Below, in pieces: positions 1-52,063 of a DNA stretch of 64,000 nucleotides. The stretch lies in UHGV virus genome UHGV-0222911, one strand, 5' to 3'. The position numbers and the translations under genes were made by a program. Origin of the DNA: a virus. Position 1 is the stretch's first letter. Each line of letters starts with the position of its first letter. The notes below the pieces were generated by a model that was given only the letters and a program-made list of their open reading frames with translations, made no database searches and was not told the origin of the DNA.

Positions 1-951
1 TCAATGTTAAAAATCTTTGTAGTTGGCTTACCAAATGGCTTGATTTCATATGTCTGCATCTCACCGTTACGTACCTGCTGACGATACTTTGTCTTAGGGT
101 ACTTGGTAATTCTCTTCAGTCCATCTGCGTGACCAAATGCTTCAACATACTCATTCCAAGCTTTTGCAAACTCTTCTCCAGTGACTTTACCTTTGGTCTT
201 AATAGTTGGAGGAAGATGTGGTTCAACTTCTGAAGCAAGCTCATTAGTCAACTTGTCAAGTTCCTTTACATGGAACTCCATAAGCTCTTTATCAGCTTTC
301 CAACCATTGATAGCTTGTTGACTCATCCAGAAAGATGTTTCTTTAGCTCGCATATAGGTTTCATAAGTGTCTATGCCACACTTCTTTAGCTTGAGATACT
401 CATTATCCAGTGCGCGTTTAGTTTTGGCGTTAATACGGATATCTTCCACAACACGAGTGAAGATTTCTGCATTCCACACACCCCAATGTTCAATCTCTGG
501 TTTACGGACACCAACACGAGCACCCCATGCAGCCAAGCCATGAGCACCTTTATAGCCTTTTGGAGTTGGTCTATCCATCCACTGAACACGAGACTGGATA
601 AGAGAATCCTGAAAGAAATTACTCCACGGCTTACACTTTGGATTATCAAAGTTCCATAAATCAGGTGCAATGTGATTGAAAACCCACCAGTCATAACCCA
701 GACCATTATGGATGCAAAGTCGTTTTGCCTTTAACGCAAACTCAATACCTTCACGCAAACCACCCTTGATGTACTTGGTGTATTTGTGACCGAGGATAGG
801 CTCATCTGTAAAGACCCATACAGGTGGCTCTTCATCGTCAGATTTATAGTCTGCGAAAGCCATTACGTGCACTTTAGTGAACTCAAGGAGTAAACCATCA
901 GTTTCTGTATCACCAACTAAATGTAAGTTTTTAAAATCTACGTTTTCCATT
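1..951 (-). CDS. DNA polymerase, family A (T7 gp5-like), N-terminal 3'-5' exonuclease domain; gene continues beyond window start
   Basis: Own translation of minus strand from ATG at 949-951 (MENVDFKNLHLVGDTETDGL...) stays open to position 1; Exo I-like VGDTETDG and Exo II-like HNGLGYDW motifs; absent from ORF track because truncated. Confidence 0.6.
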
Positions 952-1010
952 TTTACTCCCTCTAAAATCATTAACCTCATACATTACTGCAAAAAATTAT
1001 AAAAAGCAAG

Positions 1011-1075
1011 TTGACAATGTACTTGACAAGGTGTTAATCTTTGCGAAGTGGGTTTTTACTTAAAAGGTTACTTAA
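1011..1075 (+). promoter_or_regulatory. Conserved promoter/operator element with tandem TTGACAA boxes (copy 1)
   Basis: TTGACAATGTACTTGACAAGGTGT then ACTTAAAAGGTTAC; near-identical element at 46537-46600; sits at divergent junction between minus-strand polymerase and plus-strand genes. Confidence 0.4.
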
Positions 1076-1207
1076 CAGTTTAACTATACAGATACTTTAA
1101 AACTCTTAAAAGATTATTTAATAGCTTTTAAAAAGTTTTAAAGTATAACGTATAGAATACGTTAAGATAAAAGATTAAAACTTAATAGTTACTTAAAAGA
1201 GGCTTAC

Positions 1208-1630
1208 ATGCAGAAAATGTTTGTTCACCCAGACATAGCTGACTTTGTTAGAGCTTTGCAGAAGTTGGAAGAACTTGACATTGCTGCTCAACGGGAATAT
1301 GCTCACCATCACAGGAGAATGGTTGATATACAACATGAAATAGAGTTGTCTGAAAACTATGAAGATGACTTAAAATGCTCTGTATTTGAGCATATGAAAG
1401 ATGTTGCTACAGCTAGACGTAAAGCTAAAGACACAGTTGCTTTACTAGATTCTCTTAAAAAGAGGTTGCAAAGTGGTACAGACCTGTGTAATCTAGCATC
1501 ACTGATTAATGATGTTGAAACTTCTTGGGATAGACATTACTATCCACGTTCTGAAAAGACACTTGACTTTTCTTCATCCGAAAACTTAAAATGTTCTAGA
1601 AAGAAACTTAACCAACTGAGAGAGAAATAA
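1208..1630 (+). CDS. hypothetical protein
   Basis: 140 aa ORF, first gene after divergent promoter region; no recognisable motif. Confidence 0.4.
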   Translation: MQKMFVHPDIADFVRALQKLEELDIAAQREYAHHHRRMVDIQHEIELSENYEDDLKCSVFEHMKDVATARRKAKDTVALLDSLKKRLQSGTDLCNLASLINDVETSWDRHYYPRSEKTLDFSSSENLKCSRKKLNQLREK

Positions 1631-1631
1631 T

Positions 1632-2444
1632 ATGAATACTACTGTAGACCAGATGCTTGAAGAAAAAGGTATTGACGAAGCTTTCTTAATCAATGCCGTA
1701 GAAAGCATGGCTATGATTCTTCGTGGAAACAACTACACAGAACAGTTTATGCCTGCAAGCTATAACCTGCCTAAAGACAAGTCTGATAACGGTGCTTTTG
1801 CAGAACAGGTTAATATGATGCTGTGTGACAAAACACTTGCTTTAGCATCTATTGTTGTAGGTGTTGATGCTCTTGCAGAGTTCATTTTTTATGAGATGCA
1901 GAAAAATGACTATATTGCCATGACCTCTGAAGAAAAAGACTCACTATTGCTCTTAGATAATAATGAGCTAGTTGACCTGTTAATTTCGTCAACGAGTGCT
2001 GTTATGGCTGCTCTTGAGAAGCGCATGGAAGAGAAGCTGTCACGATATGAAAAACTTGATTGGGGTGTAGAAGAGTTAAACCCACGAATCAAAGAGATTA
2101 TCCAGCAAACTAAAGATTCTTTAGAAGAAGCTGTGAAAGATGATTCTGTAGCTGATGTAGAACCACTACAGGTGAAGGTTGCTCTGATGATTCCAGCTAT
2201 TTCTACAATGATGAATATCGTTGCACTAATCCAACTTTCTCAGATGTTGGGAGTAACCATTGAGTTCGTTGAGGAAATGACTGGCGGTGTGAGTATGCAA
2301 GCAATCAATGATGTTTTGGTAAGCATCGGTGCTTCAATCATTGAAGAGAAGCTTCGCATTAACTTCGGTGATGATTTTGTTAAGCAAATCTCAGCTATGG
2401 CTGAAAAAGAACACTCACAGATTAATACTGACCAACTGCACTAA
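1632..2444 (+). CDS. hypothetical protein
   Basis: 270 aa ORF, start 2 nt after previous stop; no recognisable motif. Confidence 0.45.
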   Translation: MNTTVDQMLEEKGIDEAFLINAVESMAMILRGNNYTEQFMPASYNLPKDKSDNGAFAEQVNMMLCDKTLALASIVVGVDALAEFIFYEMQKNDYIAMTSEEKDSLLLLDNNELVDLLISSTSAVMAALEKRMEEKLSRYEKLDWGVEELNPRIKEIIQQTKDSLEEAVKDDSVADVEPLQVKVALMIPAISTMMNIVALIQLSQMLGVTIEFVEEMTGGVSMQAINDVLVSIGASIIEEKLRINFGDDFVKQISAMAEKEHSQINTDQLH

Positions 2445-2506
2445 GTCTTTATAAAAACTTACAAGCCTCCTTAGTTGGGGGCTTTTTAGTAATTAAGGGA
2501 GATAGA

Positions 2507-3250
2507 ATGAGTAATATTATCGCATTTACTGGAAAGGCACGTTCTGGAAAAGACACCTCATGTTCTATTGTTAAGAATATTCTAGAAGATGAGTATGGCT
2601 ACAATGTTGCAGTAATGGCCTATGCAGACAACCTTAAACTCTCTGCATCAAGGATATTTGACTTGACTTGGAATGACCTGTACGGTGAAACTAAAGAGAC
2701 TCCACAGGTTTTTGATTTATCATACTCTGAACTGATGTTCAAGGTCACAGAAGCTATGGAGTTTACCTTCAGAGGTGAACGTTATCATACGGACTTCAAA
2801 CTCATGTCAGAGTTAACCGGACGATTAATTATGGAACTGAAGAAGGTTGCTAAACCGACTCTATTAACACGTCTGGGATTTAGTAAAAAGTATAAATTTT
2901 CATCAAGACAGATTCAACAGATTTGGGGCACTGAAGTTATCCGTAAAGTTATGGGTGACAAATTCTGGGCTAAAGACCTCGAAAAACGAATGGCAAATTT
3001 CTTTGACGTTTGCTCACTTAAGAATCAAGATGGTGTTGTTTTAATCAGTGACTTAAGGTTTGACTCTGAAGCTGAGTGGTTGAGCAGATTTGCACACCAA
3101 ATTATTGAAGTAAAAAGAGACAATGTGGATAAGGTTTCGTCACATGTTTCAGAAAATGGGATTTCTACCAAATATGCGCGTGACATTATTCATAATAATG
3201 GTACTCTTGCAGACCTTGAAAGCAAGCTAAGAGCTATCCTGAAAATTTAA
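2507..3250 (+). CDS. P-loop nucleotide kinase, deoxynucleoside monophosphate kinase-like
   Basis: N-terminal Walker A AFTGKARSGKDT, 247 aa; resembles phage dNMP kinase N-termini (recalled); RBS AGGGAGA upstream. Confidence 0.5.
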   Translation: MSNIIAFTGKARSGKDTSCSIVKNILEDEYGYNVAVMAYADNLKLSASRIFDLTWNDLYGETKETPQVFDLSYSELMFKVTEAMEFTFRGERYHTDFKLMSELTGRLIMELKKVAKPTLLTRLGFSKKYKFSSRQIQQIWGTEVIRKVMGDKFWAKDLEKRMANFFDVCSLKNQDGVVLISDLRFDSEAEWLSRFAHQIIEVKRDNVDKVSSHVSENGISTKYARDIIHNNGTLADLESKLRAILKI

Positions 3251-3258
3251 AAGAGAGA

Positions 3259-3459
3259 ATGAAGATGAGAGTAAAAGATAATTTTAAAGTTATTGACCAT
3301 CGTTTAGTGGAACTCTCATCTCTTTCCAATGAGGTAATGATTGAACGTCTTAAAAGAGTTGAATCACGAAGGAAAGAGATTGCAGATGAGATTCATGAAC
3401 TTGACAAGATTGAAAATGGATTGAAGGCAGAACTACAACGAAGAGGTGCTAATGTCTAA
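3259..3459 (+). CDS. hypothetical protein
   Basis: 66 aa ORF, overlaps primase-helicase start by 14 nt. Confidence 0.3.
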   Translation: MKMRVKDNFKVIDHRLVELSSLSNEVMIERLKRVESRRKEIADEIHELDKIENGLKAELQRRGANV

Positions 3460-5437
3460 AGGTCGTAAATTGAAAGAGGCTGGTCAGTTTGTTGGTCATT
3501 GCGCATGTCCACGTTGTGGTTCATCAGATGCTGGTTCAATCTACCACCATGACGATGATTCATATTCGATGACTTGCTTTAGTTGTAATAAAGGTTTTCC
3601 AGAGTGGGATTTTGATAAAGGACAAATTGTGAGCACTTATTCTACTGGTTCAGATAATAAAAACCGTACTTTCCGTGGAATGGATTTAGACGATGTAAAA
3701 GAAAACCTTGAAGCAATGGACTTGAAAGACAGGAAGATTCCTGCAAAAGTTCTTGAGCGTCTCGGTATCAAGGTTGACATTGACAGTGACGGTGAAATTG
3801 ATGCACATTTCTATCCGACTTACAAACGTAATGAAGATGGCAAACTAGAACATGTCGGCTACCGTGTTCGTCACCGTTACCCAGAAGACCATCCAAAAGA
3901 ACACCTACGTGGTAAGCTAAAAGACTTCTCAGGTGGTGTTGGAGACATTAAAGGTGAACTGGCAATGTTCGGTTCATGGATTGCTCCAGAAGGTGGTAAC
4001 CGTCTATTCATCTGGGAAGGTGAGATGGAATGTGCGACAGCAATCTATATGACTTCTCTTGCGATTAAGGACAAGTCTCGTCGTAAGAATTACTGTCACG
4101 TATCTGTTCCATCGGGTGCAAACATTAAGTCTATCAAAGACAACTATCAGTACATCACATCATTTGATGAGATTTACTTGTGCTTTGATAACGATGAAGC
4201 AGGTGCTAAAGCTACCAAAGAGGCTGCTGGTATCTTACCTATTGAGAAGGTTCGTTTGTTCCAGTATCCAGAAGGTGTAAAAGACCTTAATGAATGGTGG
4301 ACAAAGTTCTATAAAGAGAAAGATACAGTTCTGGAAGGATTTAAGCAGCGTATCTACAACGCACCTCGTTATTGCCCTGCTGGTATCAAGAACTTTGCAG
4401 ATGGTTTTGAGGCAATGAAGAATCGTGGTCAGATTCCTTTGATTCCTTTCCCAGAATCTTTCGGGGATTTGAACAGACTAACTTACGGTGGTTATGGTTT
4501 AGGAGAGATTACAACTCTGGCAGCACCATCTTCAGTAGGTAAATCAGCTTACACTCGTGAGATGATTTACACTGCTTGGAAAGAAACTGATTATAATATC
4601 GGTGTAATTCCTGTAGAAGATACTTACGAAGAGCTTATGGAAATGCTCTGTGCAATCCACCTGAGCAAGCAGATTTCTGAGATTCCTTATGACGAACGTG
4701 ATTGGGATGAACTAAAAGGGGCACACGCCGAGCTTTCAAAAGGTCGTCGCATCCATATCGTTGACCATCAAGGGGCAATTGACCAAGATAACCTGCTGGA
4801 GTTTGTTGACTATCTTGTTAATAGTTTAGACTGTAAGATTATCATTCTTGACCCTATTACGTTGGCTCTGTCACGTTCTGATACGGATGAAGAGGAAGTC
4901 TTGTCTGAACTACTGCGTCGTTGCAAACGCTACCAGTATGCACAGGTGAACGTCTGTCACGTTCGTAAGAGTGCAGGTGGTCAGAAAGCTAACTCTGAAG
5001 GTGGAGATATCTCTGAAGAGGACATTAAAGGTTCTGGTGCGTATTTCCAGATTTCCATGAACAACATTCTGTTAATGCGTAACAAGGTTGACCCAGACCC
5101 TGTTAAGAAAAACTTGACAAAAATCAAGTTAACTAAGTGTCGTCGTCATGGTAAGTCAACAGGTATTGCTGGTCATACTTGGTACAATCCAGACACAGGA
5201 CGTCTTATCAAAGCTTCTGGATGTGGTGTTGACATTGATGGTGCAGCAGAAAATATCCGTCAACAGTTTGGTATTGGTGAAGCTGAAGACCATTATGACG
5301 ACTCTTTACCTCATTATGAGGATGAAGTGTTTGACCGTGAGACTGGTGAAGTCTATACTGAAGAACAGCGTCAAAGCTCAATGATTCCACCTGTATTAAG
5401 CGAGGATGCAGATGACTGCCCATTCGAAACTGAGTGA
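3446..5437 (+). CDS. bifunctional primase-helicase (T7 gp4-like)
   Basis: Zinc-ribbon CPRCGSSD...CFSCNKG at N-terminus; Toprim-like LCFDNDEAG; Walker A LAAPSSVGKSAY, Walker B IIILDPIT, arginine finger region CHVRK; 663 aa. Confidence 0.8.
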   Translation: MLMSKGRKLKEAGQFVGHCACPRCGSSDAGSIYHHDDDSYSMTCFSCNKGFPEWDFDKGQIVSTYSTGSDNKNRTFRGMDLDDVKENLEAMDLKDRKIPAKVLERLGIKVDIDSDGEIDAHFYPTYKRNEDGKLEHVGYRVRHRYPEDHPKEHLRGKLKDFSGGVGDIKGELAMFGSWIAPEGGNRLFIWEGEMECATAIYMTSLAIKDKSRRKNYCHVSVPSGANIKSIKDNYQYITSFDEIYLCFDNDEAGAKATKEAAGILPIEKVRLFQYPEGVKDLNEWWTKFYKEKDTVLEGFKQRIYNAPRYCPAGIKNFADGFEAMKNRGQIPLIPFPESFGDLNRLTYGGYGLGEITTLAAPSSVGKSAYTREMIYTAWKETDYNIGVIPVEDTYEELMEMLCAIHLSKQISEIPYDERDWDELKGAHAELSKGRRIHIVDHQGAIDQDNLLEFVDYLVNSLDCKIIILDPITLALSRSDTDEEEVLSELLRRCKRYQYAQVNVCHVRKSAGGQKANSEGGDISEEDIKGSGAYFQISMNNILLMRNKVDPDPVKKNLTKIKLTKCRRHGKSTGIAGHTWYNPDTGRLIKASGCGVDIDGAAENIRQQFGIGEAEDHYDDSLPHYEDEVFDRETGEVYTEEQRQSSMIPPVLSEDADDCPFETE

Positions 5438-5543
5438 TAGTTATAAAAGAGAGGGGTTTATACCCTTCTTTGAAGAAAAAAGTTTAAATGAATTTCAGGA
5501 AGAGTGTTTGACAAAGGTTGATAGGTTCTATAGAATGCTCTAC

Positions 5544-5693
5544 ATGAAATGTGATGGAGGCGTTGAGGTAGAAGAAAAGTTCCATCACAGCATAATCACA
5601 GTCACTATTACTATACCTAAACATAATATTGGTTGGCTGTTTGTAATAAAAGAAAATGTGTTTGAATATCAAGTATATCGGAGAATATCATGA
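5544..5693 (+). CDS. hypothetical small protein
   Basis: ATG after a TTGACA-17bp-TATAGA promoter-like site at 5509-5535; the track ORF 5406..5693 overlaps the primase 3' end, so trimmed to the internal ATG. Confidence 0.25.
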   Translation: MKCDGGVEVEEKFHHSIITVTITIPKHNIGWLFVIKENVFEYQVYRRIS

Positions 5694-5838
5694 AACACTC
5701 TAAAGCATTTGAAAAAGTTTTTGGGGATTCCTTAAAAGCCACTGCTGGAAAACCAGCAAAATACTATGAAGAGAAGCGTGTAAGAACTGGAAAAACTGCA
5801 CGTAAAGCAGCTTCTAAAGATAAGCACAACTTCCAGTA
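5690..5838 (+). CDS. hypothetical small basic protein (49 aa)
   Basis: ATGA start-stop overlap with upstream ORF; MKHSKAFEKVFGDSLKATAGKPAKYYEEKR...; below ORF-track length cutoff. Confidence 0.25.
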
Positions 5839-5911
5839 ATTAATGTTTGACAATAGAGTATCAACAAATTAGAATTGGTACTCTTCATAAATTGAGATAG
5901 AGGTTTAAATA

Positions 5912-6769
5912 ATGTCTAAAGTTGTTAAAATGAAAGCTCCGGTAGAGAAGTACAATGGTACTGAACGTCAAACTCTGCGTTACCTTCTGAAAGATGTTTG
6001 GTTTTATTACCTGAACACTTCACCACGTCCGGGGAAAGGTAAATCCATTGATAAGAAATTCCCAGGCAAAGACTGTAACTACAGTGTTTCAATTCTGGCA
6101 GAAGATGGTAACAAACTGTTTAAAGAGTTTACTAAGTCTAAGAAAAACCCAGAAGGTTGGGATAAAGTTACTACTGAAGCAGTTGATGCAGATGACTTCG
6201 AAGAGAAGTTTGGTTGCAAACCACCATTTGAAGCAGACACTTACTACATCTTGAAAGTAAGTCGTGCAGCAGCTTATAAAGATGGTGCTGTGTGGACAGC
6301 TAAACAGTCATTCCCTGTAATGCTGATTGAAGAAGTAAATGGTAAGCGTGTAGCTGTTAAACAGCCGATGAAGAAAATCAAAGCTCAAGCATCTGACAAA
6401 CATGAAGATGACAAGAACTATGATGTAATTCATCCAGATATTGCAGTCGGTAATGGTTCTTTTGGTAGTGTGATTCTTTCTACTCACTTCTACACTTTTG
6501 AGAACAATGTCCTGACAAAACCTATTCAGGAACAGTTTATCATTGACACCCTTGTACCTTACACTGGTGGTAACGGTGCTAACGGTGAACCTGAACTGGA
6601 TGAAGACGAACTGGCTATGCTTGGTCTTGACGGCGTTGAAGATAACGGCGAAATCACTGAAGAAGATGCAAAAGACCACAAACCTTCGAATGATTCTGAT
6701 GATGGTGACGATGAAGACTTGCCAGACCCAGACGACGAAGAAGATGAAGACTTCGATACAGAAGACTAA
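5912..6769 (+). CDS. putative single-stranded DNA-binding protein (gp2.5-like) with acidic C-terminal tail
   Basis: 285 aa; C-terminus DDGDDEDLPDPDDEEDEDFDTED (acidic tail with aromatic residue as in T7-type SSBs); sits between helicase and exonuclease; TTGACA/TAGAAT promoter-like upstream. Confidence 0.4.
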   Translation: MSKVVKMKAPVEKYNGTERQTLRYLLKDVWFYYLNTSPRPGKGKSIDKKFPGKDCNYSVSILAEDGNKLFKEFTKSKKNPEGWDKVTTEAVDADDFEEKFGCKPPFEADTYYILKVSRAAAYKDGAVWTAKQSFPVMLIEEVNGKRVAVKQPMKKIKAQASDKHEDDKNYDVIHPDIAVGNGSFGSVILSTHFYTFENNVLTKPIQEQFIIDTLVPYTGGNGANGEPELDEDELAMLGLDGVEDNGEITEEDAKDHKPSNDSDDGDDEDLPDPDDEEDEDFDTED

Positions 6770-6832
6770 TCTTTAAAAAGTTACTTTAAAGCCCTGTACT
6801 TAGTATGGGGCTTTTTCATATGGAGAGTCACA

Positions 6833-7873
6833 ATGGAGAAGTACACGCTAACAAAACTTCCCGATTCAGTTACACATGTCTTTATTGACTCTGATAGTAT
6901 TGCCTATAAAGGTGCTTGTGTAGTTGAGAAAGCAAAATATAAGTATGTCAATAAACTCACAGCAGAAGAATCTGAACCATTTGATAATGCAAAAGATGCG
7001 GCAAGATGGTTAGCAGACCAGAGAATCCTTGTGGAAGAACTTGGCCTGACATTTGATGAAGATGAATGGGAAAGACAGACTTGGAAAGAAGCTAAGAGTG
7101 AAAAAGAAGCTATCATGGCTACTCAGCAGGTTCTTCAGGAATGGCTTAAGGTTGTTGGTAAAGAAAGAACTTGGGTAGGTTACTTAACAGAGAAGGGTGT
7201 ACATAAACATAAAGACATTAAAGGTCTTGAGCACCAATATCAAGGTAACCGTAAAGAGGCTGTCACACCAACACACTTAGTTGCTTGTCGCGAATATCTT
7301 CTGTCAAGACCAGAGTTTAAACTCTTAAAGGGTGGCTTCGAAGCCGATTCCATCGTAATTGCTAAAGCTGAAAAGATGGGTAAGAAGGCTGCTCTTATGA
7401 GTATTGACAAAGACCTTCGACAAGCTGAAGGTACTTATTGTATTGATATGACTTATGAAAAGTCACCACTAATTTTTATTGCTGACAATAATGTTGGTGA
7501 TATCTGGGATTGTCCTATCAAATCAAAACCAAAAGCTGCAAAAACAGTTGGTGTAGGTTTTAAATTTTTGTGTTATCAGGCTGTTGCTGGAGATAATGCA
7601 GACAACTACTTCGGCCTTAAAGGTGCTGGAAAAGTAGCTGTGATGAATGCTTTAGAGGGTAAAGAGACCTATAAAGAGTGTCTTGATGCTATCTATGAAC
7701 TCTATGCTAAAAAAGAGTCTTACACCTATGTGTCATGGGATGGACAGACTGTTACCAAAACACCATTAGAGTTAATGGAACAACATTTCTGGATAGCATA
7801 TCAAGAGAGAAATCCAAAAGATAATTTCTCTTTTAAGAAATATAATTGGGAGCCGTGTATGAATGAAGATTAA
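6833..7873 (+). CDS. 5'-3' exonuclease (T7 gp6-like / FEN-like)
   Basis: 346 aa; N-terminal VFIDSDSIAYKGA and central SIDKDLRQ...DNADNYFGLKGAGKV resemble gp6 exonuclease motifs (recalled); terminator-like hairpin precedes gene. Confidence 0.55.
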   Translation: MEKYTLTKLPDSVTHVFIDSDSIAYKGACVVEKAKYKYVNKLTAEESEPFDNAKDAARWLADQRILVEELGLTFDEDEWERQTWKEAKSEKEAIMATQQVLQEWLKVVGKERTWVGYLTEKGVHKHKDIKGLEHQYQGNRKEAVTPTHLVACREYLLSRPEFKLLKGGFEADSIVIAKAEKMGKKAALMSIDKDLRQAEGTYCIDMTYEKSPLIFIADNNVGDIWDCPIKSKPKAAKTVGVGFKFLCYQAVAGDNADNYFGLKGAGKVAVMNALEGKETYKECLDAIYELYAKKESYTYVSWDGQTVTKTPLELMEQHFWIAYQERNPKDNFSFKKYNWEPCMNED

Positions 7874-8360
7874 AGGATTTGGCAATTGTCCCACCTATGG
7901 TCATTGGGTATCTTTGTGTGGGGAAGTTGACCCCACTAAACATTTTGGTTTTGTCTATTTAGTATACTGTAAGAAAACCGGACAATATTATATCGGAAAG
8001 AAACAACTTAATAGTGTGACCAAAAGAAAAGTTGCTGGCAAGACTCGGAAGAAGGTAGTCACTAAGGAAAGTGATTGGATGACTTATGAGACTTCTTCTG
8101 AGTATATTAAAAAAGATATTGAGAGCTTTGGAAAAGAATTTTTTGACTTTTACATTATCCAGACCTACTGCACAAAAGGTGGGCTAGTTTATGGTGAAGC
8201 AAACCTTCAACATAAATTCGATGTAATGACAAAAAGGATTGACTCTAAGCTCAGACTCTTCTACAATGCCAATATTGCAGCAATTAAGTTTATTACTAAA
8301 GAAACTTATGAAGATGCTGAAAAAAGAATCCATAAGGTAATGAAAGCAAATTGTGCTTGA
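7863..8360 (+). CDS. GIY-YIG-like protein (possible homing endonuclease)
   Basis: FVYLVYCKKTGQYYIGKK matches GIY-(10)-YIG spacing; 165 aa. Confidence 0.3.
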   Translation: MKIKGFGNCPTYGHWVSLCGEVDPTKHFGFVYLVYCKKTGQYYIGKKQLNSVTKRKVAGKTRKKVVTKESDWMTYETSSEYIKKDIESFGKEFFDFYIIQTYCTKGGLVYGEANLQHKFDVMTKRIDSKLRLFYNANIAAIKFITKETYEDAEKRIHKVMKANCA

Positions 8361-16853: not shown

Positions 16854-17017
16854 CCTTATGTAAAACTTGACATGGTGGTGTGAGTCTTGATAGGCTTACA
16901 TCACCTTTTTATTTGGATGTTAGATATGGCAGAGAGTATTATTGGGTTGTTCATAGGTTCTGTCTTACTAGGGTTCTTTTTAGGACTTTCTTATTGTGAA
17001 TTGAAAGGTAAGTTAAA

Positions 17018-25361: not shown

Positions 25362-25440
25362 AGTGTTTGACAAGGGGCTTCAAAGCCCCTTAGAATAGCC
25401 TTACAAAATGATTTATTAACTAACAAGAGAGAGTAATAAG

Positions 25441-36904: not shown

Positions 36905-38560
36905 ACGTCTATGCAATAGCCCCTATACAAGCCTTTCCCTTTCCTTTCCAGAATCTATCCCGTACCTTAAAAGCAATAACTCTATAGCTTACTCTATAGC
37001 CCCTTATCAAATCAACTTAAATAAAAGCCAATAACCCCAGAAAGGGGATGGCCTACTAATTGGTATTGTTACCAATCCCCTAAACGCTCTATAAAGCTCT
37101 ATAACAGCCTTATCAACCTAACTTAAGGGATTGCATTAACCCACTCTAAAAAGCCCTTTATAAAGCTTCCTATAGCCTTAAAAGAATCTTATAAGGGTGT
37201 AAGCTTTATCATCTCGTTAGTTATCTTGTGAATAACTCAATAGCCCTTGATAGTCTCTAAAAAGTATGTTATAGGGGCTGTTAAGTTACTTTGAAGTTAC
37301 GTAAAAGAGGCTATAAAGTTACGTAAACGCTAGCCCCCTTAACATTTTCTTAACAATTTCTTAACAATCCCTACATAGTTATGCTTTTAAGGCACTTGTT
37401 AGAGACTTGTTAGCCCCTTGTTAAATCTCTGTTAAGACCACGTAAAAGCCTTGTAAGAGTCTTTGGCATAGCCTTTAAAGCTCCTATAAAGCCCTATAAA
37501 GAGGTGTCTGTATAGTTGGGGTGTAGTTACTAGGAAGAGACTTAAAAGAGCTTATAAGGGGCTATAGAGAGCTTTTAAGAGGTATGTTTAGAGAGTCACT
37601 AAAAGGGAAGGGAACAATAAGAAAAGAGTAGTGACCATGTTAATAGCTTGTTAAAAAGATTAAACACTTGTTAGGAACTTGTTAATTATCTAATTGGTAT
37701 TGTTACCAATCCCTAACAAAATAACTCTTTAAAATTAACTTGTTAGCTCTTGTTAGTCATCTGTTAAGATTCTGTAAAGTCTATGTATCAACTGTTAAGA
37801 AACTGTTACATCCTTGTTAGTTCTGTTAAGAATCTGTTAAGACCTTTGAAGAGTTGTTAAGAGGATGTAGTAGCTGTTAAGAGATTGTTAAGGATATTTT
37901 AAAATTTTGCAAAGTACTTGTAAGGGAGCTGTTAAGGGCTACCAAGCAGATATACATCTTCTACAGATATTTTTCAGTTCCTTCAAAGACCCTAAAAAAT
38001 GACTTGACAGTCCTATTTTATAAAAATTTTAAAATTCTGAATAATTACCTAGACAGTCTTTTAAAAATACAGGCATAAACAGGCTTATAAGATACCTTGT
38101 TAGTACCGTGTTAGACCTTGTGAGATAAGGTCTGTAAAGATATTCCTGTTAAGTTTGTTAAAACAGTCTATATAGAGGCTTAGTATTTCCTAGTGAACAC
38201 CTATAGAGAGTAACATAGCTAACCTAATGGGTTACTGTTAAGTAACACAGGTAACCTAGAGATTAAGAGGTGTATAGGAGCTTCTAAGAGGGTGTAGAGA
38301 GATGGTTAAGGTGATTGTATAGGTTGTTAAGAAGGCTTGTTAGAAGAGTGTTTAGAAGGGCTATACAGAGGGGCTATTAAGACCACTAGATAGATACTAA
38401 GATACTATATAGTACTATATAACTATATAGAGAGTAAGATTAAGAAGGTTGTTAAGAAGGATAGATATTTTATTCACATATGATGGTGACCCAGAGGTTG
38501 GGACAACCGATAAAATTTTATAAAAATTAAAAAGCCCCCAATTAAGGAGGCTCTTAAGAT
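36905..38560. repeat. 1.7 kb ORF-free region densely populated by YTGTTARG iterons and CTATARAG motifs, plus two copies of CTAATTGGTATTGTTACCAATCCC
   Basis: More than 25 copies of (C)TTGTTAG / CTGTTAAG, often in runs with 10-12 bp period (e.g. 37395-37436, 37739-37892); no ORF of 60 aa or more; lies between convergent gene blocks. Confidence 0.6.
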
Positions 38561-38563
38561 ATT

Positions 38564-46458: not shown

Positions 46459-46536
46459 GGCAGACCTACAGCTTTAAGTAAGATGGTACAGTAATCCATA
46501 CAACAAGTCAAGAACTATTGCAAGTTAAAAAAGTTG

Positions 46537-46600
46537 TTGACAAAGTACTTGACAAGGTGTAGGCTTATAAATACTTAGAAGATAACTTAAAAGGTTCCTC
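46537..46600 (+). promoter_or_regulatory. Conserved promoter/operator element with tandem TTGACAA boxes (copy 2)
   Basis: TTGACAAAGTACTTGACAAGGTGT ... AACTTAAAAGGTTCC; matches 1011-1075. Confidence 0.4.
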
Positions 46601-46686
46601 TAAAAAGGCTATTTAAACAGATATCTTTCTGGATATCTATCTTTTATCTTAAAAGCCTTTTAAGAGGTCTTATAAGAGGCATACCA

Positions 46687-47138: not shown

Positions 47139-48554
47139 ATGAGCGAATTATTTAAACATGCGCACCTTCATGCAGGTCGAACTGAAAATGGTGCTGTAAA
47201 CCATACTTCATCAATGTCTGCTCTTGTAGACTTTTACAAAGCTGCTGGTTCTAGCCGTAGCAATGTAGAAATCTTACCAGACCTGTTCTACAAAGCTTTG
47301 CGTGAGGATGTTGATGTTGCAGTTCGTATTTTACTGCATATGCGAGATGTACGAGAAGGTATGGGTGAGCGTAAAGCTTTCCGAACTGTTTTAATTCAAG
47401 CAGTTGAAGATAAAGTTTTAGAACCTACACAGGTTCTTCGCATTATGGATAAGATTGCAGAGCTTGGTCGCTTTGATGACTTCAAAATCTTTGTAGGTAC
47501 TCGTTTCGAGACAGATGCCTTCAAACACTTAGAAGCAGCATTACTAGACCCTGCAACAGCAGGTTTGGCGGCTAAGTGGTTACCACGAGTCAAACCACGT
47601 CATAAGCAGTTTGTAAAACGTTTCTGCAAGTTTGCCAACTTGAGCGAGAAAGAGTACCGCACACTGTTGTCTGCACTATCTGATACAGTTGAGCAAAAAA
47701 TCTCTGCTAATGAGTTTGGTAAGATTGACTACAGTAAGATTCCTTCACTTGCTGCTGCACGCTACCAAAAACTGTTTAACCGTAAAGATGGAGAGCGATA
47801 CAAAGCTTACATCGAGTCCTTATCAAAGGGTGAGGCTAAGATTAATGCTGGTGCTGTTTACCCATACGATGTGATTAAATCTGTCAAGCATGGTAATGCA
47901 GATGTTGCTAATGAGCAGTGGAAAGCACTACCAAACTGGATGGCAGAAGGTGAAAACATCTTATGTATGTCTGATGTATCAAGTTCAATGTCTTGGGTGA
48001 ATTTTGGCTCCATTACTGCTCTGGATATTGGTGTATCACTTGCCTTGTATGTAGCAGAACGCAATACAGGCTGCTTTAAGAATGAGTTGATGGTTTATTC
48101 AACAAACCCTCACTTCATCGAACTGAGTGGTGATTTACGAAACCGTCATCGTCAGGTGATGCGACACGTTGAATATGGCTCAACTAACTTACAAGCAGCT
48201 TTTGACCGTATTCTTGAGGTAGGTAAGAGAAACAACTTGACTCAGAAAGATATGCCAAGTAAGCTTATCATCTTCTCTGATATGGAGTTCAATCAGGTTG
48301 ATGGTGCAAATGGTCGTACAAACTTTGAAGTAATTCGTAGTAAGTACAAAAAAGCTGGATACGAAATGCCACAACTAGTATTCTGGTACTTAGCAAACCG
48401 TAATGGTACTTGCGAAGTGTCTGTTAAGGATAACGGTGTAGCAATGGTATCAGGGTTCTCTCCAGCCACTTTAAAAGCTCTGCTCGGTGGTGAGAATTTT
48501 GACCCAATCAGCGTAATGCTCAAAGCAGTAATGATTGACCGTTACATCTGGTAA
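47139..48554 (+). CDS. vWA-domain protein with helical N-terminal domain (possible Ro60/TROVE-like architecture)
   Basis: 471 aa; MIDAS-type DVSSSM (DxSxS) with downstream GSTN and FSDMEF elements in the C-terminal half; N-terminal about 280 aa helical. Confidence 0.45.
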   Translation: MSELFKHAHLHAGRTENGAVNHTSSMSALVDFYKAAGSSRSNVEILPDLFYKALREDVDVAVRILLHMRDVREGMGERKAFRTVLIQAVEDKVLEPTQVLRIMDKIAELGRFDDFKIFVGTRFETDAFKHLEAALLDPATAGLAAKWLPRVKPRHKQFVKRFCKFANLSEKEYRTLLSALSDTVEQKISANEFGKIDYSKIPSLAAARYQKLFNRKDGERYKAYIESLSKGEAKINAGAVYPYDVIKSVKHGNADVANEQWKALPNWMAEGENILCMSDVSSSMSWVNFGSITALDIGVSLALYVAERNTGCFKNELMVYSTNPHFIELSGDLRNRHRQVMRHVEYGSTNLQAAFDRILEVGKRNNLTQKDMPSKLIIFSDMEFNQVDGANGRTNFEVIRSKYKKAGYEMPQLVFWYLANRNGTCEVSVKDNGVAMVSGFSPATLKALLGGENFDPISVMLKAVMIDRYIW

Positions 48555-48572
48555 AAAGTTTTAAAAGGGGTA

Positions 48573-48602
48573 TTGACAATGTGTTTAATACCCTTTAATA
48601 TG
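48573..48602 (+). promoter_or_regulatory. sigma70-like promoter upstream of tRNA cluster
   Basis: TTGACA-17-TTTAAT; second TTGACA at 48664. Confidence 0.35.
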
Positions 48603-48719: not shown

Positions 48720-48796
48720 CTCTGTTTAGCTCAGCTTGGTAGAGCGTTCCGTTTGGGGCGGTAAGGCCGGAGGTTCAAGTCCTCCAACAGAGACCA
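48720..48796 (+). tRNA. tRNA-Pro (anticodon UGG)
   Basis: Cloverleaf parsed by eye: perfect 7-bp acceptor CTCTGTT/AACAGAG, D arm GCTC/GAGC, anticodon loop TTTGGGG, T loop TTCAAGT, CCA encoded. Confidence 0.7.
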
Positions 48797-48803
48797 AATT
48801 AAT

Positions 48804-48881
48804 GTTCCAGTAGACAAAATGGTAAAGTCACCACTCTTTCAAAGTGGATATTTGAGGGTTCAAATCCCTTCTGGAACGCCA
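48804..48881 (+). tRNA. tRNA-Glu (anticodon UUC)
   Basis: Acceptor GTTCCAG/CTGGAAC, anticodon stem CCACT/AGTGG loop CTTTCAA, T arm GAGGG-TTCAAAT-CCCTT, CCA. Confidence 0.65.
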
Positions 48882-48887
48882 GTTTTG

Positions 48888-48962
48888 ACAGAAGACCAAT
48901 TACAGCAAACTTAATCTTATTCATCTGAAGGTAAATCGGACAAAGAAGAGATTTGGTCTGGT
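48888..48962 (+). ncRNA. structured element family A, copy a (conserved stem ACAGAAGACCAAT...ATTTGGTCTGG)
   Basis: 5' ACAGAAGACCNNTTACAGCAA and 3' GGTCTGG conserved in 4 copies; ends are reverse-complementary. Confidence 0.4.
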
Positions 48963-48972
48963 CATTAAGAAT

Positions 48973-49049
48973 TGCGGGTATAGAGAAAGGGCGTCTCACA
49001 TGTCTCATTAGCATGGTATCGGCAGGTTCGACTCCTGCACCCGCCTCCA
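48973..49049 (+). tRNA. tRNA with anticodon CAU (Met or Ile2); irregular 5' half
   Basis: T arm GCAGG-TTCGACT-CCTGC, 3' acceptor ACCCGCC-T-CCA, anticodon stem CATGT/GCATG loop CTCATTA; 5' acceptor pairing imperfect by eye. Confidence 0.5.
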
Positions 49050-49056
49050 AATTTAC

Positions 49057-49120
49057 AGAAGACCGTTTACAGCAATATTTATTAAATTTTTAGCGGAAAA
49101 ATTGAAAGATACGGTCTGGT
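49057..49120 (+). ncRNA. structured element family A, copy b
   Basis: ACAGAAGACCGTTTACAGCAA ... ATACGGTCTGG with internal hairpin AATTTTT-AGCGG-AAAAATT. Confidence 0.4.
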
Positions 49121-49132
49121 AATACTAAACAT

Positions 49133-49209
49133 GGTTAGGAAGCACATAAGGTATGTGCGGTCGCCTGTTAAGCGAATGGCACAGGGTTCGAATCCCTGAC
49201 TAACCGCCA
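49133..49209 (+). tRNA. tRNA-Asn (anticodon GUU)
   Basis: Acceptor GGTTAGG/ACTAACC, D arm GCAC/GTGC, anticodon loop CTGTTAA, T arm CAGGG-TTCGAAT-CCCTG, CCA. Confidence 0.65.
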
Positions 49210-49278
49210 AATTTAGGAGAGAAGCGATTGCTCACCGATTTGTAAGGTGCAAGTCCTTAGCCTGAATAGAAATTAAAT

Positions 49279-49366
49279 GTGTCGTTATCCCGTAGATGGT
49301 AGCGGTGGGGACTGTAAATCCCTTGTCATTGAGACTCGGTAGGTTCGACTCCTACACGGCACACCA
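49279..49366 (+). tRNA. tRNA-Tyr (anticodon GUA), long variable arm
   Basis: Acceptor GTGTCGT/ACGGCAC, anticodon stem GGGGA/TCCCT loop CTGTAAA, 14-nt variable arm, T arm GTAGG-TTCGACT-CCTAC, CCA. Confidence 0.65.
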
Positions 49367-49371
49367 AGTAA

Positions 49372-49450
49372 AGGTTATGTAGTTTAATCTGGTTAAAATA
49401 CTCCCCTGTCACGGGAGATGATGAGGGTTCGAATCCCTTCGTAACCGCCA
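49372..49450 (+). tRNA. tRNA-Asp (anticodon GUC)
   Basis: Acceptor GGTTATG/CGTAACC, anticodon stem CTCCC/GGGAG loop CTGTCAC, T arm GAGGG-TTCGAAT-CCCTT, CCA. Confidence 0.7.
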
Positions 49451-49529
49451 AATTATAATAAGTATTTCAAAATGATGTTTTGAGAGGGCTATTTAGCCCC
49501 TCCCTTAAAGAGTTCTTACGAGTATTCTT

Positions 49530-49612
49530 TAAAGGAGCAGAAGACCAAATTCAGCAAGTTACTTAAAATTTCAAGCCAATTTAATTTTGAAAAATTTAAA
49601 ACTTGGTCTGGC
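49530..49612 (+). ncRNA. structured element family A, copy c
   Basis: GCAGAAGACCAAATTCAGCAA ... AACTTGGTCTGG. Confidence 0.4.
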
Positions 49613-49623
49613 TCAACAAATTT

Positions 49624-49756
49624 ACAGAAGACCGTTTACAGCAAACTTTAAACAATCTATTTCTCCGGTAAAGAAAAGGCGAAGGTTCGATTCCTTCACT
49701 CGGCAGATGTCGAGTTGGTGTAATGGTAGCACTTAAGATGATAAACAACGGTCTGG
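49624..49756 (+). ncRNA. structured element family A, copy d, enclosing a tRNA-like module (T arm then acceptor/D-arm-like segment)
   Basis: Outer stem CAGAAGACCGTT/AACGGTCTGG; inside GAAGG-TTCGATT-CCTTC + ACTCGGC followed by GTCGAGT-TG-GTGTAATGGTAGCAC (acceptor strands complementary but in 3'-then-5' order). Confidence 0.4.
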
Positions 49757-49900
49757 TAATTATCTTTGCAGATAAGTTATTAAGCTTACCTGTGAGTATG
49801 CGACCACAAAGGGTGAAAGGGTAAATTCTAGATTTAAACCCAACAAGGCACATCGCTACAGACCTTAAGCAAGTCTGGGTAGCTTATCTACAAAGATAAT
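49757..49900 (+). ncRNA. candidate structured RNA bounded by inverted repeats TATCTTTGCAGATAAG / CTTATCTACAAAGATA
   Basis: Terminal 16-nt arms reverse-complementary (1 mismatch); internal hairpins CAGACC-TTAAGCAA-GTCTG and palindrome TAAATTCTAGATTTA. Confidence 0.3.
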
Positions 49901-49905
49901 TTAAT

Positions 49906-49981
49906 GGAAGTGTAGCAGAATGGTGATGCGGCAGACTTTTAATCTGACAGGCGATGGGTTCGAATCCCTCCACTTCTACCA
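49906..49981 (+). tRNA. tRNA-Lys (anticodon UUU)
   Basis: Acceptor GGAAGTG/CACTTCT, anticodon loop CTTTTAA, T loop TTCGAAT, CCA; paralog of tRNA at 51982. Confidence 0.55.
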
Positions 49982-50060
49982 AATTCACCCTTAACTGAGA
50001 AACACCTGCGCGGCTGGAAACACCCACTCAACAGTTTCTCTAACTAGGGTACTTATTCTG

Positions 50061-50136
50061 GTTCAGTCGCAGATAAGGTAATGCAAGGGTCTCATAAGCC
50101 CTATGAATGTGGGTTCGATTCCCATCTGAACCTCCA
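50061..50136 (+). tRNA. tRNA with anticodon CAU (Met or Ile2)
   Basis: Perfect acceptor GGTTCAG/CTGAACC, anticodon stem AGGGT/GCCCT loop CTCATAA, T arm GTGGG-TTCGATT-CCCAT, CCA. Confidence 0.65.
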
Positions 50137-50137
50137 A

Positions 50138-50213
50138 GCTGGTATAGTTAAGAAGGTTATAACACTCCCCTGATAAGGGAACATCGGTGGTTCGATTCCA
50201 CCTACCAGTACCA
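50138..50213 (+). tRNA. tRNA-Ile (anticodon GAU)
   Basis: Acceptor GCTGGTA/TACCAGT, D arm GTTA/TAAC, anticodon loop CTGATAA, T arm GGTGG-TTCGATT-CCACC, CCA. Confidence 0.65.
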
Positions 50214-50228
50214 ATTTCAATAAAGTTG

Positions 50229-50258
50229 TTGACATTGAGATGTGACCACTTTATAGTA
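50229..50258 (+). promoter_or_regulatory. sigma70-like promoter inside tRNA cluster
   Basis: TTGACA-17-TATAGT. Confidence 0.4.
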
Positions 50259-50543: not shown

Positions 50544-50557
50544 ATTTTGGAGAAATC

Positions 50558-51119: not shown

Positions 51120-51133
51120 GAACAGGTGCTTGT

Positions 51134-51538: not shown

Positions 51539-51551
51539 CAGTCTTATTAGG

Positions 51552-51974: not shown

Positions 51975-51981
51975 AATTAAT

Positions 51982-52057: not shown

Positions 52058-52063
52058 AACAAT

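What the first reader, a model, noticed from the sequence alone, without database searches (positions are those of the whole stretch)
1011..1075. Conserved 60-bp element with tandem TTGACAA boxes present at two divergent-transcription junctions 45 kb apart
TTGACAAWGTACTTGACAAGGTGT followed about 25 nt later by ACTTAAAAGGTT occurs at 1011-1075 and again at 46537-46600. Both sit between a leftward (minus-strand) gene block and the first gene of a rightward block. The two TTGACA hexamers are 13 bp apart and the following -10 region is not obviously conserved, so this may be a shared operator or activator site rather than a simple sigma70 promoter.
Basis: seen in the sequence. Interest (0 to 1): 0.4.

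Follow-up and report, generated by a model that had tools for sequence, protein, structure and literature searches.

The report
Phage promoters with doubled -35 box
The repeated element is the core of three related promoters of a Felix O1-like phage, read by the host RNA polymerase, and it carries an unexplained, strictly conserved second copy of the -35 box inside the promoter spacer.

Summary
The window is a Felix O1-like phage (Felixounavirus). The TTGACA boxes start 12 bp apart, not 13. Only about 25 + 12 nt of the "60-bp element" are shared. A third copy at 35474 (TTGACA-N7-TTGACA) was missed.

Felix O1 itself has exactly three such sites. All three share one plan: an A-tract, upstream TTGACA, a variable 6-7 nt, (C)TTGACA, then TG(n)TAnnnT placed 17-18 bp after the upstream box. 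Across 43 distinct orthologous sequences from three genera, no box position varies. The inter-box bases vary freely, and the -10 keeps only T1, A2 and T6.

Erwinia and Pectobacterium relatives have a single -35 box at the same 17-18 bp spacing. So the upstream box is a sigma70 -35, and a -10 does exist, though it is weak (3/6, mostly with TG). The element is a promoter. The downstream box has no -10 of its own. It is a lineage-specific, strongly selected addition of unknown role, either a second sigma region-4 docking site or an operator.

ACTTAAAAGGTT is the first unit of a CTTWWAAG-type octamer array in the transcribed leaders. That motif is about 4-fold over-represented and concentrated in non-coding DNA. 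No start-site mapping data for these phages were found.

Verdict: a new variant of a known kind, of moderate interest.

The parts
991..1005 (+). P1 upstream A-tracts (UP-element-like), AAAAAATTATAAAAA
   Evidence: Read. AAAAAGCAAG immediately 5' of box 1 is invariant in three genera. Other TTGACA promoters of the window carry similar A-tracts.
1011..1016 (+). P1 box 1, TTGACA: the inferred -35 element
   Evidence: Invariant in 13 distinct orthologues. It lies 18 bp from TAATCT. Single-box orthologues in Erwinia phages and in L048 keep this spacing.
1017..1022 (+). P1 inter-box hexamer (ATGTAC), free to vary
   Evidence: Eleven variants among 15 distinct sequences (ATGCAC, ATACAC, ATGCGC, ATTCAC, AACTAC and others).
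1023..1028 (+). P1 box 2, (C)TTGACA, inside the spacer at about -24 to -19
   Evidence: Invariant. The sequence 16-19 bp downstream is GAAGTGGGT, so there is no -10 for this box.
1032..1040 (+). P1 extended -10, TGtTAATCT
   Evidence: The relatives have TGTTAGTCT or TGGTAGTCT. TG, T1, A2 and T6 are kept.
1046..1048 (+). P1 predicted transcription start (inferred, not mapped)
   Evidence: It lies 6-8 nt after the -10 hexamer. This is inference from standard sigma70 promoter geometry.
1058..1069 (+). ACTTAAAAGGTT, the first leader octamer (CTTAAAAG, 1059-1066), at about +12 to +23
   Evidence: The core CTTAA(A/T)AG is conserved in relatives.
1047..1207 (+). P1 leader with an octamer array (1059, 1071, 1084, 1105, 1181, 1192) and the small palindrome 1148-1162
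   Evidence: The whole intergenic region has 90% mean column identity across genera, while the gene downstream is only 62% identical in protein.
35454..35469 (+). P3 upstream A-tracts
35474..35479 (+). P3 box 1, TTGACA (-35)
   Evidence: Invariant in 17 distinct orthologues.
35487..35492 (+). P3 box 2, (C)TTGACA, 7 nt after box 1
35494..35502 (+). P3 extended -10, TGgTAACTT, 17 bp after box 1
   Evidence: Orthologues have TAACTT, TAATGT, TAGATT or TACATT.
35482..35514 (+). Hairpin enclosing P3 box 2 and its -10 (CCCUCUUGA...UUCGAGGGGG). It is specific to P3.
   Evidence: Free energy -16.5 kcal/mol, z = -2.8, and -18.0 kcal/mol in Felix O1. P1 gives z = -1.5 and P2 z = +0.6.
35519..35541 (+). 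P3 leader octamers, TCTAAAAG (about +11) and CTTAAAAG (35534)
   Evidence: The stretch is invariant across genera.
46527..46532 (+). P2 upstream A-tract
46537..46542 (+). P2 box 1, TTGACA (-35)
   Evidence: Invariant in 13 distinct orthologues. Whichard et al. 2010 annotated this hexamer as the -35 of P41, and the AYO145A record marks the site as a promoter.
46549..46554 (+). P2 box 2, (C)TTGACA
46558..46565 (+). P2 TG + -10 hexamer TAGGCT, 17 bp after box 1
   Evidence: Orthologues have TAGGCT, TAGCCT, TAAGTT, TAGTGT or TAGTAT. Felix O1 has TA instead of TG here.
46585..46596 (+). ACTTAAAAGGTT, the first leader octamer of P2, at about +13
46483..46523 (-). Leftward promoter of the same junction: TTGCAA-N6-TTGACT-N17-(TG)TACCAT
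   Evidence: The stretch is invariant across genera.

Best explanation
The element is the core of a three-member family of promoters of a Felix O1-like phage: P1 at 1011, P3 at 35474 and P2 at 46537. They are read by the host sigma70 RNA polymerase.

Shown by sequence and comparison:
- An A-rich upstream stretch precedes a perfect TTGACA.
- That TTGACA lies 17-18 bp before a weak -10 of the form TAnnnT (3 of 6 matches to TATAAT), which is usually preceded by TG.
- A second perfect (C)TTGACA sits inside the spacer, 6-7 nt after the first.

Inferred:
- The upstream box is the -35 element.
- Transcription starts near 1047, 35509 and 46572.
- P1 drives the rightward replication block. P2 drives the DUF5681 gene and then the Ro-like protein and tRNA region. 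P3 drives three small genes at the end of the early block.

The second box is not a promoter in its own right and is not needed by the ancestral promoter, because distant relatives lack it. It was fixed in the Escherichia, Salmonella, Shigella and Citrobacter phage clade and is under strong purifying selection at all three promoters.

My best guess is that it is read by sigma70 region 4 itself, since it matches the -35 consensus exactly, including the preferred 5' C. On this reading it acts as a second docking site that tunes polymerase capture at these three weak -10 promoters together.

ACTTAAAAGGTT belongs to a different layer. It is the first of several CTTWWAAG-like octamers in the transcribed leaders. 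These are probably binding sites for an unidentified factor.
For: Identity of the genome: 97.8% identity to Escherichia phage KEP3, with 261 Felix O1-like records matching.

Number of copies: three tandem sites in the window and exactly three in the complete Felix O1 genome, all intergenic and on the + strand. Chance expectation is 0.065.

Phylogenetic footprint over 13 + 13 + 17 distinct orthologous sequences from Felixounavirus, Suspvirus and Mooglevirus: 0 of 12 box columns vary at each site, while 4 of 6, 6 of 6 and 5 of 7 inter-box columns vary. The -10 hexamers vary internally but keep T1, A2 and T6.

Single-box orthologues with the same geometry:
- Erwinia phages Coenus and Prophecy: TTGACA-17-(TG)TACATT.
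- L048: TTGACT-17-TGgTATCCT.
- phiEa104: TTTACA-17-TGcTACACT.
- Wc4-1: TTGACA-18-TGaTACCCT.
- Arno162 is intermediate: TTGACA-N8-TTTACA-TGcTAGGCT.

Other promoters in the window are single-box and have better -10 hexamers (TAGAAT, TAATAT, TATAGT, TAAAGT). The three tandem-box promoters each have 3 mismatches in the -10.

The site 1 and site 2 intergenic regions are at least 99% identical in 149 of 259 and 147 of 255 records. The flanking 8 kb is mostly 90-95% identical.

Whichard et al. 2010 state that Felix O1 encodes no RNA polymerase and no recognised modifier of host polymerase specificity.
Against: No transcription start site has been mapped, and I found no RNA-seq or start-site mapping data for these phages.

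The -10 hexamers are poor, and the simple consensus scan does not call any of the three promoters.

The TG motif is not universal. Felix O1 P2 has TA, SUSP1 P3 has AG, and in P2 the TG sits one base closer to the hexamer than in the canonical extended -10.

The P1 spacer is 18 bp.

The proposed role of box 2 is inference only. A -35-like hexamer in a spacer could equally lower promoter activity or be read by another protein.

The distance from box 2 to the -10 varies (6, 5 and 4 nt).
Confidence: 0.6

Rival explanations
1. Operator model. The two TTGACA(A/T) units form a direct-repeat binding site for a phage-encoded or host regulator. This regulator overlaps the -35 and the spacer and switches the three promoters together, most plausibly as a repressor that shuts off early transcription. 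Sigma70 still uses box 1 as its -35.
For: Both boxes are equally invariant while the bases between them vary. This is the pattern expected of a two-half-site operator. Exactly three sites per genome share it. Box 2 is a lineage-specific addition that the basal promoter does not need. Whichard et al. state that temporal regulation in Felix O1 is unexplained.
Against: A regulator would have to share sigma70 region 4's specificity exactly, at all six positions in both units. The repeat period is 12 bp at P1 and P2 but 13 bp at P3. No transcription factor was recognised among the genes after P1, P2 and P3 or among 20 early ORFs. The PHROG matches carry no transcription-related annotation, and most have no known function.
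Confidence: 0.2
2. Two overlapping promoters. Each TTGACA is the -35 of its own promoter, giving two start sites about 12 bp apart.
For: Box 2 with its 5' C is an even better match to the extended -35 consensus than box 1.
Against: At 16-19 bp after box 2 the sequence is GAAGTGGGT (P1) and AGGGGGT (P3). Both are G-rich, invariant and incompatible with a -10. At P2 it is TACTTA, or CACTTA in relatives.
Confidence: 0.06
3. No function for box 2. It is the remnant of a 12-bp duplication of the -35 region, and it looks conserved only because the genomes are closely related.
For: TTGACAATGTAC and TTGACAAGGTGT match at 9 of 12 positions, which is consistent with origin by duplication.
Against: The adjacent inter-box positions have diverged repeatedly in the same set of genomes while no box position changed, at three independent loci and in three genera. 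The chance of no variable column falling in the boxes is 8e-4, 1e-5 and 4e-3 under random placement.
Confidence: 0.04

Closest known systems
Strong sigma70-dependent early promoters of virulent coliphages (T7 A1-A3, T5, T4 early promoters)
   Same: They are recognised by the unmodified host polymerase. They have a consensus or near-consensus -35 and an A-rich region just upstream. They sit at the head of early transcription units. This comparison rests on established knowledge and on reading.
   Different: To my knowledge those promoters have good -10 hexamers and no second -35 hexamer in the spacer. Here the -10 matches TATAAT at only 3 of 6 positions and a second TTGACA is fixed in the spacer.
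Extended -10 (TGn) promoters of E. coli
   Same: TG lies just upstream of a TAnnnT hexamer in P1 and P3 and in the distant orthologues.
   Different: Classical extended -10 promoters often lack a good -35. These have a perfect one, and in fact two. In P2 the TG is displaced by one base, and it is absent in Felix O1 itself.
Lambda PR' and Q antiterminator loading (a -35-like hexamer close to a -10-like element, bound by sigma region 4 when repositioned)
   Same: There is a -35-like hexamer only 4-6 bp from a -10-type hexamer. That position is one sigma region 4 could reach only if displaced.
   Different: No Q-like protein was recognised. No consistent -10-like pause element occurs in the initial transcribed region of all three promoters. 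The hexamer is 4-6 bp from the -10, not the 1 bp of lambda. This is a resemblance from memory, not a tested membership.
Lambda CII / P22 C1 activator sites (TTGC-N6-TTGC direct repeats flanking a -35)
   Same: Both are direct repeats beginning with TTG in a promoter's -35 region.
   Different: The repeat here is TTGACA with a 12-13 bp period, not TTGC with a 10 bp period. The -35 is perfect rather than poor. The phage is virulent.
T4 middle promoters (MotA box at -30 plus TAnnnT, often with TGn)
   Same: A weak TAnnnT -10 with TG, plus an extra upstream or spacer element, in a phage carrying T4-like nucleotide metabolism genes.
   Different: No MotA box sequence is present. A canonical -35 is present. 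The extra box is centred near -20, not -30. No MotA or AsiA homologue was recognised.

Membership tests
sigma70 -35/-10 promoter | -35 hexamer close to TTGACA | tested here: met
   Perfect TTGACA at 1011, 35474 and 46537, invariant in 43 distinct orthologues.
sigma70 -35/-10 promoter | -10 hexamer with A at position 2 and T at position 6, lying 16-18 bp after the -35 | tested here: met
   TAATCT at 18 bp, TAACTT at 17 bp and TAGGCT at 17 bp. T1, A2 and T6 are kept while the inner bases vary among relatives. Overall match to TATAAT is only 3 of 6.
sigma70 -35/-10 promoter | Transcription initiates 6-8 nt after the -10 with sigma70 holoenzyme | not testable with these tools
   No start-site mapping or RNA-seq data were found in the literature.
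Extended -10 promoter class | TG at -15/-14, one base upstream of the -10 hexamer | tested here: inconclusive
   Met at P1 (TGtTAATCT), P3 (TGgTAACTT) and four distant orthologues. At P2 the TG abuts the hexamer, and it is missing in Felix O1 P2 and in SUSP1 P3.
UP-element-containing promoter | A/T-rich tract at about -40 to -60 | tested here: inconclusive
   A5-6 tracts lie 4-5 nt upstream of box 1 at all three sites and at other promoters in the window.
Lambda CII / P22 C1 activated promoter | TTGC-N6-TTGC direct repeat straddling a poor -35 | tested here: not met
   The repeat is TTGACA-N6/7-TTGACA with a 12-13 bp period, and the -35 is perfect.
T4-type middle promoter (sigma appropriation) | MotA box (a/t)(a/t)TGCTT(t/c)A centred at -30 in place of the -35 | tested here: not met
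   No such sequence is present and a canonical -35 is present. No MotA- or AsiA-like family was found among the ORFs scanned.
Lambdoid Q-dependent late promoter | Q-binding element in the promoter plus a sigma-dependent pause element (-10-like) in the initial transcribed region | tested here: inconclusive
   TAACTT occurs at about +12 in P2, but the equivalent position reads TTACTT/TACTTA at P1 and TATCTA at P3, so it is not consistent. No Q-like protein was identified.
PhoB/OmpR-type direct-repeat site (Pho box) | CTGTCAT repeats with an 11-bp period on the coding strand, replacing the -35 | tested here: not met
   TGTCAA appears only on the opposite strand, with a 12-13 bp period, and a canonical -35 is present.
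Known structured leader RNA (Rfam) | Match to a covariance model, or covariation support for a structure | tested here: not met
   No Rfam match at E up to 1 in the P1 leader, and only chance-level matches in the P2 leader. The alifold covariation term is +0.86, and only one 7-bp hairpin shows a compensatory change.

The most novel reading that the evidence does not exclude
Box 2 could be the place where an unidentified phage factor re-docks sigma70 region 4, in the manner of sigma appropriation or lambda Q loading. The CTTWWAAG octamer arrays just downstream of the start sites would then be that factor's DNA or RNA binding sites. Together they would form a promoter-embedded switch that coordinates three transcription units in time, or makes them terminator-resistant. 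Felix O1 has no known temporal regulator.
Probability: 0.1. Interest if true: 0.75.

Novelty: new variant of a known kind. Interest (0 to 1): 0.37.

Why it matters
Felix O1-like phages are widely used for Salmonella and E. coli typing and biocontrol, yet their transcription programme is essentially unknown. The genome paper found no promoter in the DNA polymerase / gene 97 gap and said that temporal regulation was unexplained.

This analysis makes three contributions:
- It places a specific, testable promoter in that gap.
- It shows that this promoter belongs to a three-member class with a shared architecture.
- It isolates one feature, a perfectly conserved second -35 hexamer in the spacer, that ordinary promoter models do not explain and that can be tested by simple mutagenesis.

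If box 2 is read by sigma region 4 it is a natural example of promoter tuning by a decoy or auxiliary -35. If it is read by a phage protein it would identify the missing regulator.

Tried and rejected
1. A -10 for box 2. I read the sequence 16-19 bp downstream at all three sites and in relatives. It is G-rich and invariant at P1 and P3, so box 2 is not an independent promoter.

2. An RNA or DNA hairpin as the reason for box 2. Only P3 has a significant hairpin (z = -2.8). P1 gives -1.5 and P2 +0.6.

3. A structured leader RNA. Rfam found nothing. Alifold on seven P1 leaders gave no covariation support apart from one short hairpin.

4. The leader octamer as part of ribosome-binding sites. Only 2 of 44 CTTWWAAG copies lie within 20 nt of a start codon.

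5. An IMG/VR scan with TTGACAN6CTTGACAA, to find the architecture in other phage groups. It returned 120+ scattered single hits, consistent with chance for 14 specified bases, so it was uninformative.

6. Host origin. A distant blastn search of 996-1070 against 5,426 E. coli genomes found no match.

7. Candidate regulators. Pfam and PHROGs on the genes after P1, P2 and P3 and on 20 early ORFs gave mostly families of unknown function and no transcription factor. A PDB profile search with the 140-aa protein found nothing. A single-sequence AlphaFold model was of low confidence (pLDDT 63, long helices), so I made no fold search or inference from it.

8. Lambda CII sites, T4 MotA boxes and Pho boxes were considered and rejected on sequence and period (see the membership table).

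9. Literature. No start-site mapping or RNA-seq study of Felix O1-like phages was found. The RT-PCR classes in Whichard et al. are too coarse to separate the promoters.

Full report
**What the window is.** The window matches Felix O1-like myoviruses (Felixounavirus, Ounavirinae). Bases 1-8000 are 97.8% identical to Escherichia phage KEP3, and 261 related records match. It carries a 26-gene tRNA array at 48.7-54.7 kb. Site 1 lies between the start of the DNA polymerase gene (minus strand, ATG at 950) and a 140-aa ORF at 1208. That ORF heads the rightward block containing the dNMP kinase, primase/helicase and exonuclease genes. Site 2 lies between small minus-strand ORFs and a DUF5681 ORF at 46687, which is followed by a DUF2828/DUF7788 "RNA-binding" protein and the tRNAs. 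These are the gene 96/97 and gene 40/41 junctions of Felix O1 described by Whichard et al. 2010 (PMC3185647).

**The observation.** The 24-mer is far beyond chance: 2 hits against 0 in 100 shuffles, and E = 3.5e-6 for the 25-nt local match. Four corrections apply.
- The hexamers start 12 bp apart, not 13.
- Only 24 of 25 nt plus 12 nt are shared. The 23-24 nt in between are unrelated. The 12-mer alone is not significant (E about 0.8).
- A third copy exists at 35474-35492, TTGACA-ATCCCTC-TTGACA. It lies inside a co-directional block, so a divergent junction is not a defining property.
- The complete Felix O1 genome has exactly three perfect tandem sites, at 11269, 21515 and 63532. They are the orthologues of the three in the window.
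Three tandem sites compare with 0.065 expected from dinucleotide-preserving shuffles, and all three are intergenic.

**Anatomy.** All three copies share one plan:
- A5-6 tracts, then 4-5 nt, then TTGACA (box 1).
- 6 or 7 nt.
- (C)TTGACA (box 2).
- 4-6 nt that usually contain TG.
- A TAnnnT hexamer 17-18 bp after box 1: TGtTAATCT at 1032-1040, TGgTAACTT at 35494-35502, and TG-TAGGCT at 46558-46565.
None of the three is called by the simple consensus scan, because each -10 matches TATAAT at only 3 of 6 positions. This probably explains why Whichard et al. found no promoter in the 96/97 gap. In the 40/41 gap they annotated only TTGACA(N15)TATAGG.

**Comparative footprint.** I collected orthologous regions from GenBank phages and IMG/VR contigs of Felixounavirus, Suspvirus and Mooglevirus. 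This gave 13, 13 and 17 distinct sequences for P1, P2 and P3.
- No column of either box varies at any site (0 of 12 each).
- Of the inter-box columns, 4 of 6, 6 of 6 and 5 of 7 vary. At P1 the variants include ATGTAC, ATGCAC, ATACAC, ATGCGC, ATTCAC, AACTAC, AACTGC, AAGCAC, AACCAC, AATCAC and AATAAC.
- The -10 hexamers vary internally but always keep T1, A2 and T6. P1 has TAATCT or TAGTCT. P2 has TAGGCT, TAGCCT, TAAGTT, TAGTGT or TAGTAT. P3 has TAACTT, TAATGT, TAGATT or TACATT.
This is the signature of a sigma70 -10 element.

More distant Ounavirinae settle which box is the -35. The orthologous promoters have a single box at the same spacing:
- Erwinia phages Coenus and Prophecy: TTGACA-17-(TG)TACATT.
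- An IMG/VR relative whose protein is 39% identical: TTGACT-17-TGgTATCCT.
- phiEa104, P2 orthologue: TTTACA-17-TGcTACACT.
- Pectobacterium phage Wc4-1: TTGACA-18-TGaTACCCT.
- Pectobacterium phage Arno162 is intermediate: TTGACA-N8-TTTACA-TGcTAGGCT.
So box 1 is the ancestral -35. Box 2 is an addition fixed in the clade infecting Escherichia, Salmonella, Shigella and Citrobacter.

**What box 2 is not.** It has no -10 of its own. The sequence 16-19 bp downstream is GAAGTGGGT at P1 and AGGGGGT at P3, both invariant and G-rich. It is not explained by a hairpin. Only P3 has one (35482-35514, -16.5 kcal/mol, z = -2.8), probably a terminator-like structure for the upstream gene. This also explains why the inter-box CCCC is conserved there. 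P1 and P2 do not fold better than shuffles. It is not mere shared ancestry, because the neighbouring bases have diverged repeatedly.

**What box 2 may be.** It matches the -35 consensus at all six positions and carries the preferred 5' C. The simplest reader is therefore sigma70 region 4. The three promoters that carry it are also the ones with the weakest -10 hexamers among the clear TTGACA promoters of the window. The others have TAGAAT, TAATAT, TATAGT or TAAAGT. I therefore favour an auxiliary or competing docking site that tunes polymerase capture at these three promoters together. The main rival is an operator for an unidentified regulator that recognises the two TTGACA(A/T) units. The footprint fits this equally well. 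It requires a protein with exactly sigma's specificity and must tolerate both a 12-bp and a 13-bp period. No transcription factor could be recognised among the genes following the three promoters or among 20 early ORFs, so no candidate can be named.

**The ACTTAAAAGGTT box.** It lies at about +12 or +13 of the predicted transcripts of P1 and P2. P3 has TCTAAAAG at about +11 and CTTAAAAG at +26. It is not specific to this element.
- CTTAAAAG is the commonest + strand 8-mer in intergenic DNA, 12 copies and 8.4-fold enriched.
- The near-palindromic family CTTWWAAG occurs 88 times on both strands against 19.9 expected, and 21 of 44 copies lie in the 6.5% of the window that is intergenic.
- The looser CTWWAHAG occurs 165 times against 41 expected.
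- The P1 leader holds six copies in 170 nt at 10-13 nt intervals. Arrays of the same type (CTTTAAAG, CTTAACAG, CTTTACAG) follow the orthologous promoter even in the Erwinia and Pectobacterium phages and in L048.
- The P1 and P2 intergenic regions are at least 99% identical in about 150 records, while the flanking 8 kb is mostly 90-95% identical.
- Between genera the P1 region has 90% mean column identity, although the adjacent protein is only 62% identical.
- There is no Rfam match and no covariation support for a folded leader. The motif is not an RBS feature.
I read these octamers as sequence-specific binding sites on DNA or RNA for an unknown, probably phage-encoded, factor. This is inference.

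**Comparison with known systems.** In how it works, the element is a sigma70 promoter of the kind used by virulent coliphages for early transcription, with features of the extended -10 class. It does not fit lambda CII sites, T4 MotA-dependent middle promoters or Pho boxes (see the membership table). The nearest precedent for a -35-like hexamer close to a -10-type element is lambda PR', where Q helps sigma region 4 bind such a hexamer. That resemblance is recalled from memory, the defining features were not found consistently, and I keep it only as the low-probability novel reading.

**Verdict.** The feature is real and non-random and is the core of three coordinated promoters. The conserved second -35 hexamer and the leader octamer arrays are undescribed in the literature I could search. 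I rate it a new variant of a known kind, interest 0.37.

Noticed in passing
window 36838-38563: A 1.7-kb stretch with no ORF lies between the convergent rightward and leftward blocks. It is packed with short direct repeats (CTGTTAAG x10, CTTGTTAG x8, CTATAAAG, CTTAAAAG). The repeats at 37739-37940 are spaced 10-12 bp apart and look like iterons. This could be a replication origin, a packaging or terminal-repeat region, or a protein-binding array. Several GenBank records of relatives start or end near here.
   Followed up: partly
window 31613, 31993, 33292, 34084 (each about 80 bp): A repeated module: ACTTTACA, then a hairpin GGGGCTTA...TAAGCCCC that spans the spacer and -10, then AGATAAAGAGCTTTACCACTAAATCCTAAAYTGGAGA. 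It precedes small early ORFs. It corresponds to the 57-bp repeats noted in the Felix O1 genome paper and looks like a promoter, hairpin and RBS cassette.
   Followed up: partly
window 35594-35666, with copies near 31207, 32945, 33809, 35028, 36202 and 36519: A second family of about 75-bp intergenic repeats (86-92% identical). It contains a GGGGAGG...CCTCCC hairpin followed by the RBS of the next small gene.
   Followed up: no
window 25367-25400, 48565-48601, 16867-16905: Promoter-like sites are embedded in terminator-like hairpins. At 25367 the spacer of TTGACA-18-TAGAAT is itself a GGGGCTTCAAAGCCCC hairpin. At 48573 the -35 sits inside the stem of a terminator-like hairpin. At 16867 TTGACA-18-TGaTAGGCT overlaps a 14-bp stem followed by a T run. 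This overlapping terminator-promoter design seems typical of the phage.
   Followed up: no
window 1208-1630 (+): The 140-aa protein directly after P1 (phrog_4039, no Pfam domain) is at least 99% identical in 203 of 300 phage records. That is far more conserved than its surroundings. A single-sequence AlphaFold model gives long helices at low confidence (pLDDT 63). Function unknown.
   Followed up: partly
window 1148-1162: The palindrome ACGTAT-AGA-ATACGT in the P1 leader becomes ATGTAT-AAC-ATACAT in several Moogleviruses. This is a two-sided compensatory change (C..G to T..A), and it is the only covarying pair set in the leader.
   Followed up: partly
window 46483-46523 (minus strand): The leftward promoter of the site 2 junction is TTGACT-17-(TG)TACCAT, with a second -35-like hexamer, TTGCAA, 6 nt upstream of it. 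Here the downstream hexamer is the one correctly spaced from the -10, which is the reverse of the rightward promoters. The stretch is invariant across three genera.
   Followed up: partly
window 46619-46638: A perfect inverted repeat, AGATATC-TTTCTG-GATATCT, lies in the P2 leader and is invariant across genera. It is followed by the near-palindrome CTTAAAAGCCTTTTAAG (46648-46664).
   Followed up: no
window 951-1207, minus strand: No convincing promoter for the leftward DNA polymerase gene could be found in the P1 intergenic region. A perfect TATAAT on the minus strand (about 996-1001) has no -35 and is not conserved in Susp- or Moogleviruses.
   Followed up: partly
window 47139-48554, then 48720-54680: A DUF2828/DUF7788 protein (annotated in relatives as a vWFA or RNA-binding protein) lies immediately upstream of the 26-gene tRNA array. 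Each intergenic gap there carries its own TTGACA promoter (47071, 48573, 48664, 50229).
   Followed up: no
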